This document shows positions 6,529 to 11,977 of a stretch of DNA of 64,000 nucleotides, one piece after another. Origin of the DNA: a virus; IMG/VR virus record IMGVR_UViG_3300012228_000003, positions 3,050 to 67,049 of that record. The stretch is one strand, 5' to 3'. The first letter of the stretch is position 1. Each line of letters opens with the position of its first letter. The notes under the pieces were generated by a model, which had not been told where the DNA came from, made no database searches, and worked only from the letters and a program-made list of their open reading frames with translations. Position numbers and translations under genes: made by a program.

Positions 6529-6907
6529 CGCCGTACCTCCTGTTGGTGGAAATGGTCTTGTCCCTCATCGGGGGCAGTCCCCCTCGCTCTGCCATCCAAG
6601 CTCTCAGCGCCTCTCTGCCGGCCTCGGTGATCACGTAGACCAACTCGGACTGCCCGTCGACGTCGAGGTCAATCCGCCGGACCAACTTCATCTCCAGCAA
6701 CCCCGGTCGAGCCTTGCCGGAGCTTGAGTTCTCCGGCACTCCGTTGATGCTTGAGTTGATCGTCCCGCTGCCGACCGAGAATCCGGCGGCCTCGGAGAGC
6801 GCGGGCTTCGTCATTGGGGGGCAGTCCTCTCCGGCCAGGACGACGAGGAGCCTAGCCTGCGGAGTCCTGATCTTCGGCGGGGAGTCATCAGTTGGGAACG
6901 GAGGCAT
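6494..6907 (-). CDS. Winged-helix DNA-binding protein, paralog of 8743-9141
   Basis: PQARLLVVLA...LVRRIDLDVDG...YVITEAGREAL. Confidence 0.65.
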   Translation of the reverse strand: MPPFPTDDSPPKIRTPQARLLVVLAGEDCPPMTKPALSEAAGFSVGSGTINSSINGVPENSSSGKARPGLLEMKLVRRIDLDVDGQSELVYVITEAGREALRAWMAERGGLPPMRDKTISTNRRYGDGKAKEDRGED

Positions 6908-7085
6908 CGGGGATCGTCTCCAAGACTAGCTCGACCGGCCTCTCACAGACCGTCTCTGCCGGTCTGTGAGTGACGTCAACGAAGTAGTGTGCCCTTCCCT
7001 CAAAGTATCTCACCTTGCCGGAGTCCAAGGCTGGCTGGCTGGCTGGCTGGCCTATCGAATGCTCCATCCAGATTCTAACTCTCAT
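6888..7085 (-). CDS. Free-standing TRD-like mini-protein 3 with (AGCC)5 tract (in frame)
   Basis: DVTHRPAETV motif; AAGGAG RBS; tetranucleotide repeat near the 5' end. Confidence 0.5.
   Translation of the reverse strand: MRVRIWMEHSIGQPASQPALDSGKVRYFEGRAHYFVDVTHRPAETVCERPVELVLETIPDASVPN
7029..7051 (-). repeat. (AGCC)5 tetranucleotide SSR
   Basis: + strand ggctggctggctggctggctggc. Confidence 0.9.
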
Positions 7086-7295
7086 CTTGACTCCTTGAAC
7101 ACCGGACTGTCAGGCGGCTCGTTGACCAGGAGCGACGGGGGGGGGCAGGGGAACCGGCGAGCCGTCGTCAGTTTCGAGCCAGTATGCCACGTCGTTGAGA
7201 CTCATCGCCTGCACGGTGAAGCAGCACCTGACCGAGAGATCGAACCTACCCATTCCGTTGTTGTGCTTGAACTTCCCGCAGAGGTAGACCTTCAT
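7082..7295 (-). CDS. Free-standing TRD-like mini-protein 2, frameshifted at a C9 tract (currently stops at 7110)
   Basis: DLSVRCCFTVQA...YWLETDDG. With C8 the tail reads PPPSLLVNEPPDSPVFKESR and ends in an ATGA overlap with the next ORF. Confidence 0.6.
7137..7145 (-). repeat. C9 homopolymer (G9 on +)
   Basis: Direct reading. Confidence 0.9.
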
Positions 7296-7513
7296 CGCTT
7301 CACGTCCCTGAGAATCGGACTGTCAATCGGCTCGCTCAGCAAGAGAGAGAGAGGAGGACTGCCGACTGACTCTCCCTCGTCAGCGACCAGCCGCCAGTCT
7401 CCCTGGTTTCCGTCAGCGTGGCCTCTAGCATTGACGGTCTGGCAGGGGTCGTCAATCGAGGCTCTGCGCGGCTCTGACTCCTTGAACACTCGCAGCGAGA
7501 GAGCGAGGTGCAT
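7292..7513 (-). CDS. Free-standing TRD-like mini-protein 1 with (CT)6 tract (in frame)
   Basis: SIDDPCQTVNARG...WRLVADEG...PPLSLLLSEPIDSP; starts immediately after the cmoA stop. Confidence 0.6.
   Translation of the reverse strand: MHLALSLRVFKESEPRRASIDDPCQTVNARGHADGNQGDWRLVADEGESVGSPPLSLLLSEPIDSPILRDVKR
7342..7353 (-). repeat. (CT)6 dinucleotide SSR
   Basis: + strand agagagagagag, at the position homologous to the C9 tract of the paralog. Confidence 0.8.
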
Positions 7514-7514
7514 C

Positions 7515-9141: not shown

Positions 9142-9167
9142 GCAAGTCACGTCAACCTGACTTCAAA

Positions 9168-9192
9168 ATCCCCGGCCATCGAGCCGGGGTCT
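9168..9192. terminator. Hairpin between convergent genes
   Basis: CCCCGGC-catcga-GCCGGGG. Confidence 0.55.
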
Positions 9193-9193
9193 C

Positions 9194-11288
9194 TCATTTC
9201 TGCCCCAGCATCTTGCATAGAGCCTTCGTCGCTGCTTCGATGTTGCTCCCCTTGTTCCACCACGAGTCGACTCCCGAAGGGTGGGGCAGCAAGAGGAACG
9301 TCGCCCCCTTGACCTGCCTGACCTCCAGGAATGCCATGTCTGCCAGATCGAAGGCTTCGGCCACCCCTCGACCTACCAAGACCACTCGCCTGCCAGAGAC
9401 TGACAACAGGCAGGCAGTGCGACGTGCCTCGTCGAGGGGGAAGATGTCTCCCTTGCCGCCCTCCGAGTGACCCCGGAATCTGTCGATCAAGTTGACCGCC
9501 TCGAAGGAGGTCAAGAGATTCGCCAGCGACGTGCCCAGCACCGCAGCGAGGCGCTCCCCTGAGTTGCCGGAGGAGGCTCTGCGATCCTCTCTGGCGTCGG
9601 TCAGCACCGAGGGAGACTGGCCGACGAGGAGGGGGCGAGCGTTGGCGAGGCGAACCTTCGCAGAGAGCACCTTCCTGTCGACGGCGGGGATCAGGACGAG
9701 GTCTCTGACCGTCTCCGCGACCGCCCTCATCATCAGCGGAGGCACTGCGCGACCGAGGCGCTCCCATTGCTGGGAATATGATCCTGTGAGCACGAAGTTG
9801 TCGGGGAAGGCGCAGATTCGGCGCAGCTCCGCGATGGAGAACTTTCGCTGCAGGGTCGGGTGACAGACCGATGCCAGCGAGGGAGTCCCACCTTCGGCAG
9901 TGACGGTCGGTGAGGCTCCATCGAGGGGGGCGCGGACTAGCTGGAAGAACTTGTCGCTCTGCTCTCCTGGCAGGAGCTTCGCGGCCTCGGCCCCGACCGC
10001 GAACCTCGACATGTCAGAATCGGACTCGACCTGCGTCAGCCGCACGTCCCCGCCCCCTGATCTGCCGTTGCCGCTGTTGGGACTGGCACCAATGGTGCCA
10101 GCCGGTTCCTTCTCTGCATCCTTCCAGCCCTCCTCGCCGAAGGCCACGTTGGCGCCAACCTCGACCTTGACCCCGTGAGAACCTGACCTCGTGCCTCGCA
10201 CGGTCATCGCCGGATCGTCGGCGGAGTTCTCGACCACTCCGGCTCTCTTGTCGTTGGTGATGATCGTCTTGACCTCCGGCACTCTGTTGCCGGTAGCTTC
10301 TCGAAACGTGTGAATGATGGTCGGTGCCGGTCTTTGCCCCGCATCCTCCCACTCCTTGTCGGTCCCCTTCTTGCTGAAGTCTCCTCCTGGCACGCGACCA
10401 ACTTCGGAAATCCACGGGATCGCCTCGCGGACCGAGTAGCGATGGGGCAATGGCTTCGGGTGAGCGGGCATCAGCGGCTTGCCGTCGGAGTCCTCCAGAT
10501 CGTTCCGCACCCCGACGAAGATGCAGCGCTGCCGCTGCTGAGGGACTCCTAGCCACTGCGCATCAAGGACCTTGCAAGCTATGCGATAGCCACAAGCCTT
10601 CAGCTCCTTGAGAATCTCCAGGAAGTATCCCTTGGCCGTTCCCTTGACGAGTCCTGAGACGTTCTCGGCGACGAAGGTCTTCGGCTGAATGCCCTTGAGC
10701 AATCGTGCGAACTCGAAGAACAGGTCGTCGGTTCGCTGCGAGGTATCCGAATATTTCTTGACCGCCCCCCAGTCCCGCTGCCGCTTGCCTGCGGTCGAGA
10801 ATGATGCACAGGGCGGCGAGCCGTCTAATAGGTCTAGCTCTCCGGGCTTCATGCCGATGATCTTCAACACGCTCTCTGGCGTCACCTCTCGTATGTCCCT
10901 CTCGTCAAGGTGCGTCCCCGGCCTCATGTTCGCTCGATAACTGTCCCTGGCGGCCTCGACGAACTCCGAGGCCAAGAGGACGCGGAAGCCGGCCATTCGA
11001 TAACCCAGACTGGAGCCTCCGCAGCCGGAGAAGGTAGAGACCACCGTGAGACCGTTCCAGGGGATCGCCGTGATCTCGGCCATGCTGGGCACTCGGTAGG
11101 GGGGCTTCTCGTCGATGTCATCGCAGAGCTTCGGCATCTGACCATCCTCCTCTATGTAGTAGCTTCCCAGACCGAACCCGACCCCCCCCCGCACGGATGG
11201 TGCGGCAAGGTTCCTTGCTTATGTTCCTTCTCTCGACCCAGCCGTTCATCTTGCCAGCTGGTTGAGGGCAGATCAGCCAGAGCGTCAT
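9194..11288 (-). CDS. C5-cytosine DNA methyltransferase-family enzyme (predicted carboxymethyltransferase) with tandem TRD-like modules and a C-terminal UDG-like domain; 5' module frameshifted at G9
   Basis: FSGCGG (I), GSPPCASFS (IV), ENV (VI), QQRQR (VIII), RRICAFPD (IX), LGRAVPP (X, N>R); C-terminal LLVGQSP...LPHPSG. An internal ATG at 11137 has a GAGGAGG RBS. Confidence 0.9.
11182..11190 (-). repeat. G9 homopolymer (C9 on +)
   Basis: Direct reading; G8 would put ATG 11288 in frame with the MTase. Confidence 0.9.
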
Positions 11289-11977
11289 GGCGCTTCGTCC
11301 TCCTGACCTTCCTTCGCTTGAACGTCTCCTCCGCTGAAAGCATACCCGCAGCGGGGGCAGATGTGATCGACCTCGATGTCCTCACCGACTTCGGGGAAGT
11401 CTTCGGGCGAGGCAGGCTCGGCGAAGTCCATCGCTCTCAGCACCTCTAGCTCGTCTAGGCTCCAGCCGACCATCTCCAGCCCGGCCTTCGAGACCATCTG
11501 CTCCAGCTTGGCGACTTGCTCGAAGTCCCAGCGACCGTGCTCGGCACTTCGATTGTCCGCCATCCCGTAGGCGGCAAGCTCGGCCTCAGAGAGGTCGTCG
11601 TCTCTGGCCGCCGCGATCTTCGTCCAGCCGAGCGCCTTGGCCGCTTCGAGGCTCCCGTTGCCTGCGATGACGATGCCGTCCTTCGTTGCAGCTAAGGGCC
11701 TGCGCTGACCGAAGAGGGCGAAGGAGAGCATGATAGCCCGGATCGACTTCTCAGGATGCTTCTTCGCGTTGTTCGGATCGGGGGTCAGCGAGTCGATCTT
11801 GACCACAAGGGATTTGAGCGAGGGGGCGATCCGGTCCTTCGGCGCCTCTCGCATCACCCGCTCCTCCCGCTCCAGTTGAGTCTCGGCCTTCTTCGCGGCT
11901 TCAGGAGTCTTGACCTTGGTCACTAACCCCGCTGCTCCTCGGTTGACCAGCTGCGGTCTGTCGTCGAACTTAGGCAT
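11285..11977 (-). CDS. ParB/Srx-like protein with C-terminal Zn ribbon
   Basis: LTPDPNNAKKH, FGQRRPL, IAGNG, ADNRSAE..WD; HICPRCGYAF. Confidence 0.85.
   Translation of the reverse strand: MPKFDDRPQLVNRGAAGLVTKVKTPEAAKKAETQLEREERVMREAPKDRIAPSLKSLVVKIDSLTPDPNNAKKHPEKSIRAIMLSFALFGQRRPLAATKDGIVIAGNGSLEAAKALGWTKIAAARDDDLSEAELAAYGMADNRSAEHGRWDFEQVAKLEQMVSKAGLEMVGWSLDELEVLRAMDFAEPASPEDFPEVGEDIEVDHICPRCGYAFSGGDVQAKEGQEDEAP

What the first reader, a model, noticed from the sequence alone, without database searches (positions are those of the whole stretch)
6888..11977. Candidate new system: phase-variable, modular-specificity DNA carboxymethylation locus
Seen: parB-like gene, then a [TRD-G9]-C5 MTase (motif X N>R, four internal TRD-like repeats) fused to a UDG-like domain, then cmoA, then three TRD-like mini-genes, each with an SSR. 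Knowledge: CmoA makes carboxy-SAM; a basic residue at motif X confers carboxy-SAM use; multispecific phage MTases use modular TRDs; SSR slippage drives phase variation of bacterial mod genes. Inference: the phage population stochastically changes which sequences carry 5-carboxymethyl-C, hedging against restriction and modification-dependent defences. I know of no description of this combination.
Basis: partly seen in the sequence, partly recalled or inferred. Interest (0 to 1): 0.95.

Follow-up and report, generated by a model that had tools for sequence, protein, structure and literature searches.

The report
Repeat-switched phage DNA carboxymethylation locus
An uncultured freshwater phage carries the recently published enzyme pair expected to put carboxymethyl groups on its DNA cytosines, and here, as in several related phages, slippage-prone DNA repeats decide whether small recognition-like add-on modules of that enzyme are made, which may let the phage vary its DNA camouflage.

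Summary
The core (ParB-like, C5-transferase with motif-X Arg, CmoA) is the CmoA/CmoX 5-carboxymethylcytosine system published in Dec 2025 (PMC12783734). This scan has noted such loci 239 times in at least 173 genomes, so the core is not new.

New findings:
- CmoX of this clade often carries a ~45-aa N-terminal module that is a copy of its TRD repeat unit.
- That module carries a repeat tract in 12 of 19 loci. Six tracts are in frame and six are out of frame.
- Relatives with identical flanks differ only in tract length (G9/G9/G10; G8/G9).
- The module's frame stays under purifying selection even in "off" copies (14 synonymous against 3 non-synonymous changes).
- In the window the module is cut off by a G9. 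Natural fused forms exist in its own lineage.
- Three stand-alone paralogous mini-ORFs follow cmoA, each with its own repeat. Four of the five strongest repeats in 64 kb lie in this locus.
- The UDG-like fusion is supported at family level.

Not shown: within-population switching (only contigs were available), length variation at the three mini-gene repeats, any effect on target specificity, and any binding in trans.

An earlier scan note describes a similar idea in a Prevotella phage. Verdict: a new variant of a known kind.

The parts
11285..11977 (-). ParB-like (ParBc-type) protein, 230 aa, first gene of the parB-cmoX unit
   Evidence: phrog_620 2.2e-31; no Pfam hit at E<=0.01. A ParB-like gene was found by tblastn in 75 of 81 related loci. 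The ParBc association is published.
11118..11288 (-). ORF0: TRD-like N-terminal module of CmoX. Its ATG overlaps the parB stop. In this assembly it is out of frame with CmoX after the tract.
   Evidence: N-ext HMM 7.4e-8. Natural fused forms are P0003 and P0009.
11182..11190 (-). G9 tract on the coding strand (C9 on +). One G fewer would put ORF0 in frame with CmoX.
   Evidence: The related contig L083 starts with 13 G at this same place.
9701..11137 (-). CmoX core: cytosine C5-carboxymethyltransferase-like domain with an enlarged variable region holding four TRD-like motifs. It has its own start, an ATG at 11137 behind GAGGAGGA.
   Evidence: PF00145 3.6e-53; 8YF3 1.1e-69 with SPPC and motif-X Arg; motif count; sequence.
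9194..9700 (-). UDG-superfamily-like C-terminal domain fused to CmoX. Motif A reads GQSPS and motif B reads HPS.
   Evidence: phrog_12275 2.6e-16. PF03167: 18.6 bits here, 29.4 and 27.9 bits in the orthologues. Atlas; alignment.
9170..9189 (.). GC-rich hairpin between the convergent cmoX and winged-helix genes; terminator-like
   Evidence: a consensus scan only; the number of such sites is not above shuffles.
8743..9141 (+). Winged-helix-like small protein, convergent to cmoX, conserved in relative L083. The ORF is open from 8605; the likely start is near 8743.
   Evidence: Weak EarA-like hit, 0.049. Promoter-like site at 8657-8685. Paralogue of 6494-6907.
8328..8540 (-). GIY-YIG homing-endonuclease remnant (70 aa, frame broken after it), absent from relative L083
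   Evidence: PF01541 1.1e-6; phrog_314 1.1e-14; TIGR01453 1.9e-11; L083 layout.
7515..8234 (-). CmoA-like carboxy-SAM synthase, 239 aa
   Evidence: TIGR00740 1.8e-42 (145.7 bits, below the equivalog cut-off of 193.3); phrog_4752 4.5e-68; PDB 4GEK 6.2e-29 over the full length.
7292..7513 (-). mini1, 73 aa, a stand-alone TRD-like module. (CT)6 on the coding strand at 7342-7353, in frame in this assembly.
   Evidence: N-ext HMM 6.9e-8; hhalign P 1.2e-4. No homologue of similar length was found.
7110..7295 (-). mini2, 61 aa; TRD-likeness is weak. C9 on the coding strand at 7137-7145. One C fewer would read the tail that is paralogous to mini1's tail and end in an ATGA overlap with mini3.
   Evidence: (repeat D1, 53 nt, 72%); hhalign P 4.6e-4. 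No HMM hit.
6888..7085 (-). mini3, 65 aa, a stand-alone TRD-like module. (AGCC)5.75 on the coding strand at 7029-7051, in frame.
   Evidence: TRF; tblastn hit to a free-standing ORF between parB and cmoX in L045, 7e-9; 65-aa orthologue P0005, 79% identical; HMM 1.7e-5.
6494..6907 (-). Second winged-helix-like protein, 137 aa; overlaps the end of mini3; paralogue of 8743-9141
   Evidence: BLASTP 32% identity over 91 aa, E 5e-7.

Best explanation
This is a ParB-like/CmoX/CmoA locus of a complete 67-kb uncultured phage.

Inferred by homology to a proven system: CmoA makes carboxy-SAM, and CmoX transfers the carboxymethyl group to C5 of cytosines in phage DNA. No AsnB-type amide ligase is present, so the product is expected to stay 5-carboxymethylcytosine.

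Shown by comparison: in this clade CmoX can carry an optional ~45-aa N-terminal module that is a copy of the repeat unit of its own target-recognition region. This module is a hot spot for slippage-prone repeats, whose length decides whether the module is fused to the enzyme. The catalytic core keeps its own start codon, so the enzyme is made either way.

In the window the G9 tract leaves the module unfused (short CmoX). Three further stand-alone copies of the module follow cmoA. They have ribosome-binding sites and overlapping stop/start codons, and each has a different repeat tract.

Inferred: these tracts are contingency loci. Replication slippage gives progeny that differ in which modules are made, and this tunes how or where CmoX acts on DNA. 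I consider a change in efficiency or target range more likely than a clean change of specificity.

The fused UDG-like domain is inferred to handle uracil or modified bases arising at the enzyme's target. Its activity is unknown.
For: Core system:
- 8YF3 (SpCmoX) is by far the best solved match: 1.1e-69, against 1.8e-21 for the next. SPPC and the motif-X Arg align.
- The Arg is nearly invariant in 46 relatives.
- Paper sections 5, 13 and 14 were read.
- There is no PF00733 match in the complete genome.

The module:
- An HMM built from N-terminal modules also hits the internal TRD units of most CmoX relatives. In the window it hits ORF0, mini1 and mini3.

The switch:
- Among the 77 sequences where the core start was found, 19 have the module upstream.
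- 12 of those 19 carry a repeat in it, against 3 of the 58 without a module.
- Of the 12, 6 are in frame with a start and 6 are not.
- L048, L056 and L055 have identical flanks with G9, G9 and G10. L065 and L062 have identical flanks with G8 and G9.
- L055 and L056 are 93.2% identical over 6265 nt with a single gap.
- L077 has (CAGA)28 between module and core, and L002 has (GA)9.
- Purifying selection on the module frame includes 'off' copies: L056 against L054 shows 14 synonymous and 3 non-synonymous changes; L065 against L062 shows 3 and 0.
- In the window's own lineage, P0003 and P0009 are fused. P0009 and the short P0002 sit in one 90% cluster. Contig L083 starts with 13 G.

Own start of the core:
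- Relatives without the module begin at the same place.
- All six 'off' loci keep a Met shortly before the KPPY motif.
- The window has GAGGAGGA before the ATG at 11137.

Mini-genes:
- The repeats are clustered.
- mini3 has a free-standing homologue beside cmoX in L045 and a 65-aa orthologue at 79% identity.
- The homologous module in L035 has a G8 where mini3 has (AGCC)n.
Against: - No read-level data. Only contigs could be laid. The second sample (X2, depth 2.6-3.7) shows the same lengths at the three mini-gene repeats and does not cover the fourth.
- The mini3 orthologue keeps the same repeat-encoded peptide, so no variation has been seen at any of the three mini-gene repeats.
- mini1 and mini2 have no homologues elsewhere. 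mini2 is not recognised by the module HMM.
- Two 9-mers are not by themselves more than a first-order Markov model gives.
- (CT)6 and (AGCC)5.75 are short compared with classical contingency tracts (recalled).
- The AF2 model of the natural fused form gives only pLDDT 50-68 for the module and 25-38 for the variable region, so no fold or docking is known.
- The relatives that differ in tract length are 88-96% identical overall, not clonal.
- The consensus genomes come from different assemblies, whose homopolymer calls I cannot audit.
Confidence: 0.6

Rival explanations
1. The N-terminal module and the three mini-proteins are specificity determinants (TRDs acting in cis or in trans). Repeat slippage therefore changes which sequence motifs receive 5-carboxymethylcytosine.
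For: - The modules are copies of the TRD repeat unit.
- The number of TRD units varies between relatives.
- In closely related phages the module is present or absent as a ~141-nt in-frame indel, like a cassette.
- Multispecific Bacillus-phage C5 methyltransferases use tandem TRDs (recalled, not checked here).
Against: - No modification data exist.
- A TRD outside the variable region, or as a separate peptide, has no precedent that I know of (recalled).
- SpCmoX recognises only GC, so long recognition may not be needed.
- The structure model is uninformative.
Confidence: 0.2
2. The three mini-ORFs are decaying duplicates of the module with no function, and their repeats are mutational debris. 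Only the N-terminal tract matters, or none does.
For: - mini1 and mini2 have no homologues.
- mini2 is out of frame with its paralogous tail.
- The array downstream of cmoA is unique among the 81 loci.
- A 65-codon open frame is not rare at 60% GC (my estimate).
Against: - The three consecutive ORFs have Shine-Dalgarno-like sequences and ATGA or near-overlap junctions.
- mini3 is kept at 79% identity and at the same length in another phage, and as a free-standing gene in L045.
- Three different repeat types lie within 325 nt (P = 0.0008).
Confidence: 0.25
3. Both isoforms are made from one DNA sequence, by programmed transcriptional slippage or ribosomal frameshifting at the tracts, at a fixed ratio. 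There is no heritable switching.
For: - Purifying selection on the module in 'off' genomes would also fit constant read-through.
- Homopolymers of 9 or more can cause RNA polymerase slippage (recalled).
Against: - The tract types are heterogeneous: poly-G, (GA)9, (CAGA)28 and (AGCC)n. Only DNA slippage is common to all of them.
- Tract length differs at the DNA level between relatives.
- Known slippage sites are mostly A/T runs (recalled).
Confidence: 0.1
4. The frame breaks are sequencing or assembly errors at homopolymers, and the real genes are all intact.
For: - All records are metagenome assemblies.
- L083 ends in a 13-G run, which can be an artefact at contig ends (the artefact is recalled).
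Against: - The Logan assembly of the probable source run (X1, depth 11.6, not independent) reproduces all four tract lengths. A second sample (X2) reproduces three of them at depth 2.6-3.7 and does not cover the fourth.
- The repeats include di- and tetranucleotide tracts.
- Lengths in the window's lineage range from about 8 to 13 or more.
- On and off are split 6 to 6.
Confidence: 0.05

Closest known systems
CmoA-CmoX(-CmoY) 5-carboxymethylcytosine system of Synechococcus phage S-B43 (Yang et al., Nat Commun 2025, PMC12783734; PDB 8YF3)
   Same: - CmoA-like Cx-SAM synthase beside a C5-MTase homologue with SPPC and the motif-X Arg.
- A ParBc-type neighbour.
- SpCmoX is the best solved match.
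   Different: - No amide ligase in the whole genome.
- The variable region is about 105 aa longer, with four TRD-like motifs.
- A UDG-like C-terminal fusion.
- A repeat-interrupted N-terminal module and three stand-alone module genes.

The paper's main text has none of the words frameshift, homopolymer, glycosylase or target recognition; 'phase' occurs only in unrelated senses. Its supplements could not be seen.
Simple-sequence-repeat phase-variable DNA methyltransferases of bacteria (Type III mod phasevarions; Campylobacter cj0031 poly-G, PMC4889913, listing and abstract only)
   Same: A repeat tract in the reading frame puts a DNA-modifying enzyme, or part of it, in or out of frame. On and off alleles coexist among close relatives.
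   Different: - Here the element is a lytic-type phage genome, and the mark is predicted to be carboxymethyl, not methyl.
- The tract toggles an accessory TRD-like module, while the catalytic core keeps its own start.
- Several independent tracts sit on paralogous modules.
Phage contingency loci: T2/T4 (bioRxiv 10.1101/2025.10.21.683753, passages read) and Fletchervirus poly-G tracts in receptor-binding proteins (Sorensen 2021, cited there). The same text mentions a poly-G in a methylase gene of phage BPP-1.
   Same: Hypermutable homopolymers in phage genes, proposed as bet-hedging.
   Different: Those concern receptor-binding and other genes. No DNA-hypermodification enzyme, and no module-wise switching, is described in the passages I read.
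Multispecific C5 methyltransferases of Bacillus phages (SPR, phi3T, rho11s; recalled, no call)
   Same: Several TRD units in tandem between motifs VIII and IX.
   Different: Their TRDs all sit inside the variable region and are not repeat-switched. Here, copies also sit at the N-terminus and as separate genes.
Earlier scan note e1-3667539 (probable Prevotella phage with eleven G/C runs switching methylase genes, including mini-genes for recognition modules)
   Same: The same idea, on other DNA: slippage tracts on separate recognition-module mini-genes of a phage cytosine methylase.
   Different: That is a different enzyme lineage (not stated to be CmoX), and I did not test it.

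Membership tests
CmoX (DNA cytosine C5-carboxymethyltransferase; Yang et al. 2025) | Catalytic SPPC motif | tested here: met
   DGSPPCASFS aligns with DGSPPCSAFS of 8YF3. It is invariant in 46 relatives.
CmoX (DNA cytosine C5-carboxymethyltransferase; Yang et al. 2025) | Arg in motif X in place of Asn (R350 of SpCmoX), which binds the carboxyl of Cx-SAM | tested here: met
   GRAVPP aligns with GRMVPP of 8YF3. The role of the residue comes from paper section 5.
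CmoX (DNA cytosine C5-carboxymethyltransferase; Yang et al. 2025) | CmoA encoded in the neighbourhood | tested here: met
   CmoA-like gene about 1 kb downstream. CmoA was found in 65 of 81 related loci.
CmoX (DNA cytosine C5-carboxymethyltransferase; Yang et al. 2025) | Transfers carboxymethyl, not methyl, to DNA cytosine | not testable with these tools
   Needs LC-MS of virion DNA or of DNA from cells expressing the enzyme.
CmoA (carboxy-SAM synthase) | Score above the NCBIfam equivalog cut-off (TIGR00740, 193.3 bits) | tested here: not met
   145.7 bits, E 1.8e-42. This is a diverged phage branch.
CmoA (carboxy-SAM synthase) | Full-length similarity to solved CmoA and to the phage CmoA family | tested here: met
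   4GEK 6.2e-29, residues 11-238 on 30-257; phrog_4752 4.5e-68, 2-237 of 241.
UDG superfamily (PF03167) | Pfam gathering score of 24.3 bits | tested here: inconclusive
   The window scores 18.6 bits (E 0.0021). Orthologues P0002 and P0003 score 29.4 and 27.9 bits. In the Atlas, 24 of 30 hits are UDG-bearing clusters. There is no significant PDB match by sequence profile.
UDG superfamily (PF03167) | Catalytic motif A with an acidic or polar activator, and motif B HPS (motif names recalled) | tested here: inconclusive
   HPS is invariant. Motif A reads GQSPS here, GEAPA in P0012 and GAAPS in P0013. Activity cannot be judged from this.
Simple-sequence contingency locus (phase variation) | The tract lies in or at the 5' end of a reading frame, so that one unit more or less changes the frame | tested here: met
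   All four tracts in the window, and 12 module-bearing relatives.
Simple-sequence contingency locus (phase variation) | Tract length differs between otherwise closely related genomes, and both states occur | tested here: met
   Met for the N-terminal module tract: and the window's own lineage. Not seen for the three mini-gene tracts.
Simple-sequence contingency locus (phase variation) | Heterogeneity within one population, and reversibility at high rate | not testable with these tools
   Only Logan contigs were available, no raw reads.
Multispecific phage C5 methyltransferases (SPR/phi3T type; recalled) | Several TRD units in tandem in the variable region | tested here: met
   Three P..T[IV] motifs plus the canonical unit. 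The module HMM hits one to four units in the relatives' variable regions.
Multispecific phage C5 methyltransferases (SPR/phi3T type; recalled) | Each unit confers a separate target sequence | not testable with these tools
   Needs methylome or carboxymethylome mapping of unit-deletion variants.
ParB-like (ParBc) partner of phage DNA methyltransferases | Match to ParB-like nuclease/partition families | tested here: met
   phrog_620 2.2e-31 and nine further ParB-like or methyltransferase PHROGs. Pfam gave no hit at E<=0.01.

The most novel reading that the evidence does not exclude
One phage genotype produces progeny with different carboxymethylcytosine patterns. Each of four slippage tracts independently adds or removes a TRD-like module (one fused, three acting in trans). 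These modules retarget or gate CmoX. The result would be a combinatorial, heritable but reversible 'epigenetic coat' that hedges against both restriction enzymes and modification-dependent nucleases.
Probability: 0.18. Interest if true: 0.85.

Novelty: new variant of a known kind. Interest (0 to 1): 0.6.

Why it matters
Carboxymethylcytosine was shown to be a natural phage DNA base only in late 2025, and nothing is known about how its placement is controlled.

If the repeat tracts are real switches, phages regulate a DNA hypermodification enzyme the way pathogenic bacteria regulate their phase-variable methylases. The difference is that they toggle recognition-like modules while the catalytic core stays on.

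That makes a concrete prediction. Lysates should be mixtures of tract lengths, and the long and short enzyme forms should differ in modification pattern or level. This can be tested directly in E. coli, which supplies carboxy-SAM.

The optional ~45-aa module and the stand-alone copies would also be a new handle for engineering sequence-selective carboxymethyltransferases.

Tried and rejected
- Read-level test. The look-up of sequencing runs gave five runs, all kept as contigs. Read laying therefore shows only consensus. X1 is probably the source. X3 and X4 hold small shares or relatives and say nothing.
- Complex prediction. CmoX residues 1-490 with mini3 returned 'no answer' (score 0.00). This is no evidence either way.
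- Structure. The AlphaFold2 model of the natural fused form P0003 with 46 sequences has a confident core only. The module scores pLDDT 50-68, the variable region 25-38 and the UDG-like part 36-70. I ran no fold search, because a low-confidence model gives meaningless matches.
- Origin of the mini-gene junctions. I suspected they derive from the parB 3' end/cmoX junction. Local DNA alignments scored 15-18, within the shuffle range of about 17.7 +/- 2.3, so I dropped the idea. In that call the mini1/mini2 and mini2/mini3 'matches' are artefacts of my overlapping region bounds. Only the tail repeat (score 31, against a shuffle maximum of 24; also D1) is real.
- mini3 library search. Three further hits are Big_3_5 Ig-repeat proteins. 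I read these as compositional or repeat matches, not kin.
- Other homologue searches. mini1 found only itself. P0005 has no relative in IMG/VR. A query with the L048 module returned only the four contigs I already had.
- UDG-like domain against PDB. Neither the single sequence nor the profile gave a significant hit.
- Census rows dropped. In 6 of 83 sequences my pattern for the core start failed. Two of these, L003 and L023, carry in-frame modules. L002 and L011 are the same contig.
- Junction enrichment. 13 of the 39 repeats in 661 kb lie within about 200 nt upstream of cmoX, against about 1 expected. This is my arithmetic. The loci are related, so the number of independent lineages is about eight.
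- Literature. The searches behind 'not in print' were made, plus passages. Supplements of PMC12783734 were closed and may list domain fusions.

Full report
WHAT IS THERE

The window is part of a complete 67,049-bp virus record with direct terminal repeats, from freshwater sediment metagenomes. All genes of the finding lie on the minus strand. In order they are:

- A ParB-like gene, 11285-11977 (phrog_620, 2.2e-31).
- A 56-codon ORF0, 11118-11288. Its ATG overlaps the parB stop.
- A 647-aa C5 transferase, 9194-11137 (PF00145, 3.6e-53).
- A GC-rich hairpin, 9170-9189.
- A convergent winged-helix-like gene on the plus strand, about 8743-9141.
- A 70-aa GIY-YIG endonuclease remnant, 8328-8540.
- A CmoA-like gene, 7515-8234.
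- Three mini-ORFs of 73, 61 and 65 codons: 7292-7513, 7110-7295 and 6888-7085.
- A second winged-helix-like gene, 6494-6907.

THE CORE IS A PUBLISHED SYSTEM

The transferase's best solved relative is SpCmoX (8YF3) at 1.1e-69. The next best, M.HaeIII, scores 1.8e-21. The SPPC motif and the Arg that replaces the motif-X Asn both align.

Yang et al. (PMC12783734; outline and sections 5, 13 and 14 read) showed that SpCmoX uses carboxy-SAM from a phage CmoA to make 5-carboxymethylcytosine. They showed that this Arg contacts the carboxyl group. They also found 5,615 candidate CmoX sequences in phages, often next to CmoA and ParBc genes.

The window's CmoA-like protein matches TIGR00740 at 1.8e-42, which is below the equivalog cut-off. 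It matches phrog_4752 at 4.5e-68 and E. coli CmoA (4GEK) over its full length. No AsnB-type ligase (PF00733) is found in the complete genome, so I expect plain 5-carboxymethylcytosine. The chemistry is inferred by homology, not shown.

This scan has noted such loci before on other DNA: 239 notes in at least 173 genomes.

THE UDG-LIKE FUSION

The last ~168 residues match phrog_12275. They match PF03167 at 18.6 bits, which is below Pfam's cut-off. The two orthologues with the same fusion (P0002 and P0003, 74-78% identical in this part) score 29.4 and 27.9 bits, above the cut-off.

ESM Atlas neighbours are mostly viral UDG-bearing clusters (24 of 30 hits). Two free-standing homologues exist. HPS is invariant. 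Motif A reads GQSPS here, so activity is open. Sequence searches of the PDB gave nothing significant. Of 81 related loci, none has this domain by tblastn, so the fusion is lineage-specific.

THE ADD-ON MODULE

The orthologue P0003 carries, in frame, an N-terminal extension that is the window's ORF0.

I fetched 80 CmoX loci from IMG/VR; 364 relatives were found and the best 80 were kept. Many have such an extension between the parB stop and the conserved KPPY start of the core. An HMM built from 16 of these extensions and iterated twice on the loci recognises three things:
- the extensions themselves;
- one to four units inside the variable (target-recognition) region of most CmoX relatives;
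- in the window, exactly ORF0 (7.4e-8), mini1 (6.9e-8) and mini3 (1.7e-5), at Z = 20,000.

mini2 is not hit. hhalign against the extension alignment gives P 4.6e-4 for mini2, 1.2e-4 for mini1 and 4.4e-3 for mini3.

mini3 has stronger direct support. It has a free-standing homologue between parB and cmoX in L045 (tblastn 7e-9). It also has a 65-aa orthologue at 79% identity, found in a search of 1.84 billion proteins.

The module is optional. L049, L057, L068 and L070 begin directly at the core, while their relatives L048 and L056 carry the module. L057 and L056 are 93-95% identical around a ~141-nt indel.

THE REPEATS

In the 64-kb window the only homopolymers of 8 or more are the two 9-mers at 11182-11190 and 7137-7145. 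The only tetranucleotide repeat is at 7029-7051. (AG)6 at 7342-7353 is one of two dinucleotide x6 tracts.

Markov simulations give means of 0.95, 0.21 and 0.01 for these three classes. The chance that 4 of 5 sites fall within 4.2 kb is 0.005. The chance that 3 fall within 325 nt is 0.0008. The clustering, not the 9-mer count, is what is unusual.

COMPARATIVE EVIDENCE FOR SWITCHING

In the census (77 of 83 sequences usable), 19 have the module upstream of cmoX. Twelve of these carry a repeat in it: poly-G of 7-10 in ten relatives, (CAGA)28 in L077, and G9 in the window. Only 3 of the 58 without a module have a repeat there. Two of those are the same contig, with (GA)9. The third is L083, which starts inside the tract.

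Of the 12, six are in frame with a start codon (L026, L035, L048, L056, L060, L065). Six are not (L054, L055, L062, L063, L077 and the window). The five directly fused modules without a repeat are all in frame.

L048, L056 and L055 have identical sequence for 36 nt before and 30 nt after the tract, and they carry G9, G9 and G10. L065 and L062 likewise carry G8 and G9. L055 and L056 differ by a single gap in 6,265 aligned bases at 93.2% identity.

The module's frame is under purifying selection even where it is 'off'. L056 against L054 shows 14 synonymous and 3 non-synonymous differences (pS 0.53, pN 0.03). L065 against L062 shows 3 and 0.

In the window's own lineage:
- P0009 (639 aa) and P0002 (602 aa, starting at the internal Met) belong to one 90% cluster. 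P0009 is fused through four glycines, where P0003 has two.
- The JGI contig that encodes P0002 begins with 13 G.

The tracts sit at a conserved Gly-Gly of the module in several lineages. In L035 a G8 lies in the loop where mini3 has (AGCC)n.

The core keeps its own start. Relatives without the module start there. All six 'off' loci keep a Met just before KPPY. In the window the ATG at 11137 follows GAGGAGGA, and ORF0 stops 17 nt past it.

WHAT THIS MEANS, AND WHAT IT DOES NOT

The data fit contingency-locus behaviour of the N-terminal module across about eight lineages. They do not show within-population heterogeneity, because only contigs could be laid. A second sample has the same lengths at the three mini-gene tracts.

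No variation has been seen at the mini-gene tracts. mini1 and mini2 are unique to this phage. Their role as switches rests on three things: clustering, paralogy to the switched module, and the shared tail of mini1 and mini2. That tail is a 53-nt repeat at 72% identity, with the tract at the same place. It is in frame in mini1 and one base out of frame in mini2.

Nothing here bears on specificity. The structure model is confident only for the core, and the complex job gave no verdict (see Tried and rejected).

COMPARISON AND NOVELTY

The enzyme pair is known. Repeat-switched methyltransferases are classical in bacteria. Phage contingency loci have been reported for T2/T4 and for Fletchervirus receptor-binding proteins, with a passing mention of a poly-G in a BPP-1 methylase gene.

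In the library searches I made, and in the main text of the CmoX paper, I found no description of three things:
- repeat tracts in CmoX;
- an N-terminal or stand-alone TRD-like module;
- a CmoX-UDG fusion.

The paper's supplements were closed.

Earlier scan notes describe a variable C-run at the end of another CmoX gene (e1-3445667). They also describe a Prevotella phage with tracts on recognition-module mini-genes of a cytosine methylase (e1-3667539). I did not test either.

I therefore class the finding as a new variant of a known kind, of solid interest to people working on phage DNA modification. The bold part, specificity switching, is still open.

Noticed in passing
window 8328-8540 (and 8235-8330): GIY-YIG homing-endonuclease remnant between the winged-helix gene and cmoA. 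It has a 70-aa N-terminal part, followed by a NUMOD-like stretch in another frame. It is absent from the closest relative, contig L083, where cmoA follows the winged-helix gene directly.
   Followed up: partly
window 8743-9141 (+) and 6494-6907 (-): Two paralogous winged-helix-like small proteins (32% identity over 91 aa, E 5e-7) in inverted orientation bracket cmoA and the mini-genes. They may be regulators of the locus.
   Followed up: partly
window 11137, 11977, 12701, 14958 and others: Many proteins of this phage begin with Met-Pro-(Arg/Lys)-(Leu/Phe): CmoX short form, ParB-like, N6/N4 methylase and primase-helicase. The meaning is unknown. It fits 11137 being a real start.
   Followed up: no
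L077:742-853: A perfect (CAGA)28 tract links the TRD-like module to cmoX in an unrelated lineage. All three frames of the tract read the same Arg-Gln-Thr-Asp repeat, so only the exit frame matters.
   Followed up: partly
L056:1221-1370 versus L057:1668-1675: The TRD-like N-terminal module is present or absent as a ~141-nt in-frame indel between phages that are 93-95% identical. It behaves like a cassette.
   Followed up: partly
L007:3132-3284 and 3319-3513; L003:4764-5006: Some relatives carry two modules in tandem upstream of cmoX. In L007 the first is in another frame. Arrays of the module are therefore not unique to the window, although an array downstream of cmoA is.
   Followed up: partly
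window 11982-12701: A second DNA methyltransferase (N6_N4_Mtase, 1.5e-18) lies directly upstream of the ParB-like gene, so the phage probably carries at least two kinds of DNA modification.
   Followed up: no
window 4833-4844: (TA)6, the only strong repeat of the window outside the locus, lies just downstream of the gene at 4848-5861 (phrog_6247, annotated DNA topoisomerase).
   Followed up: no
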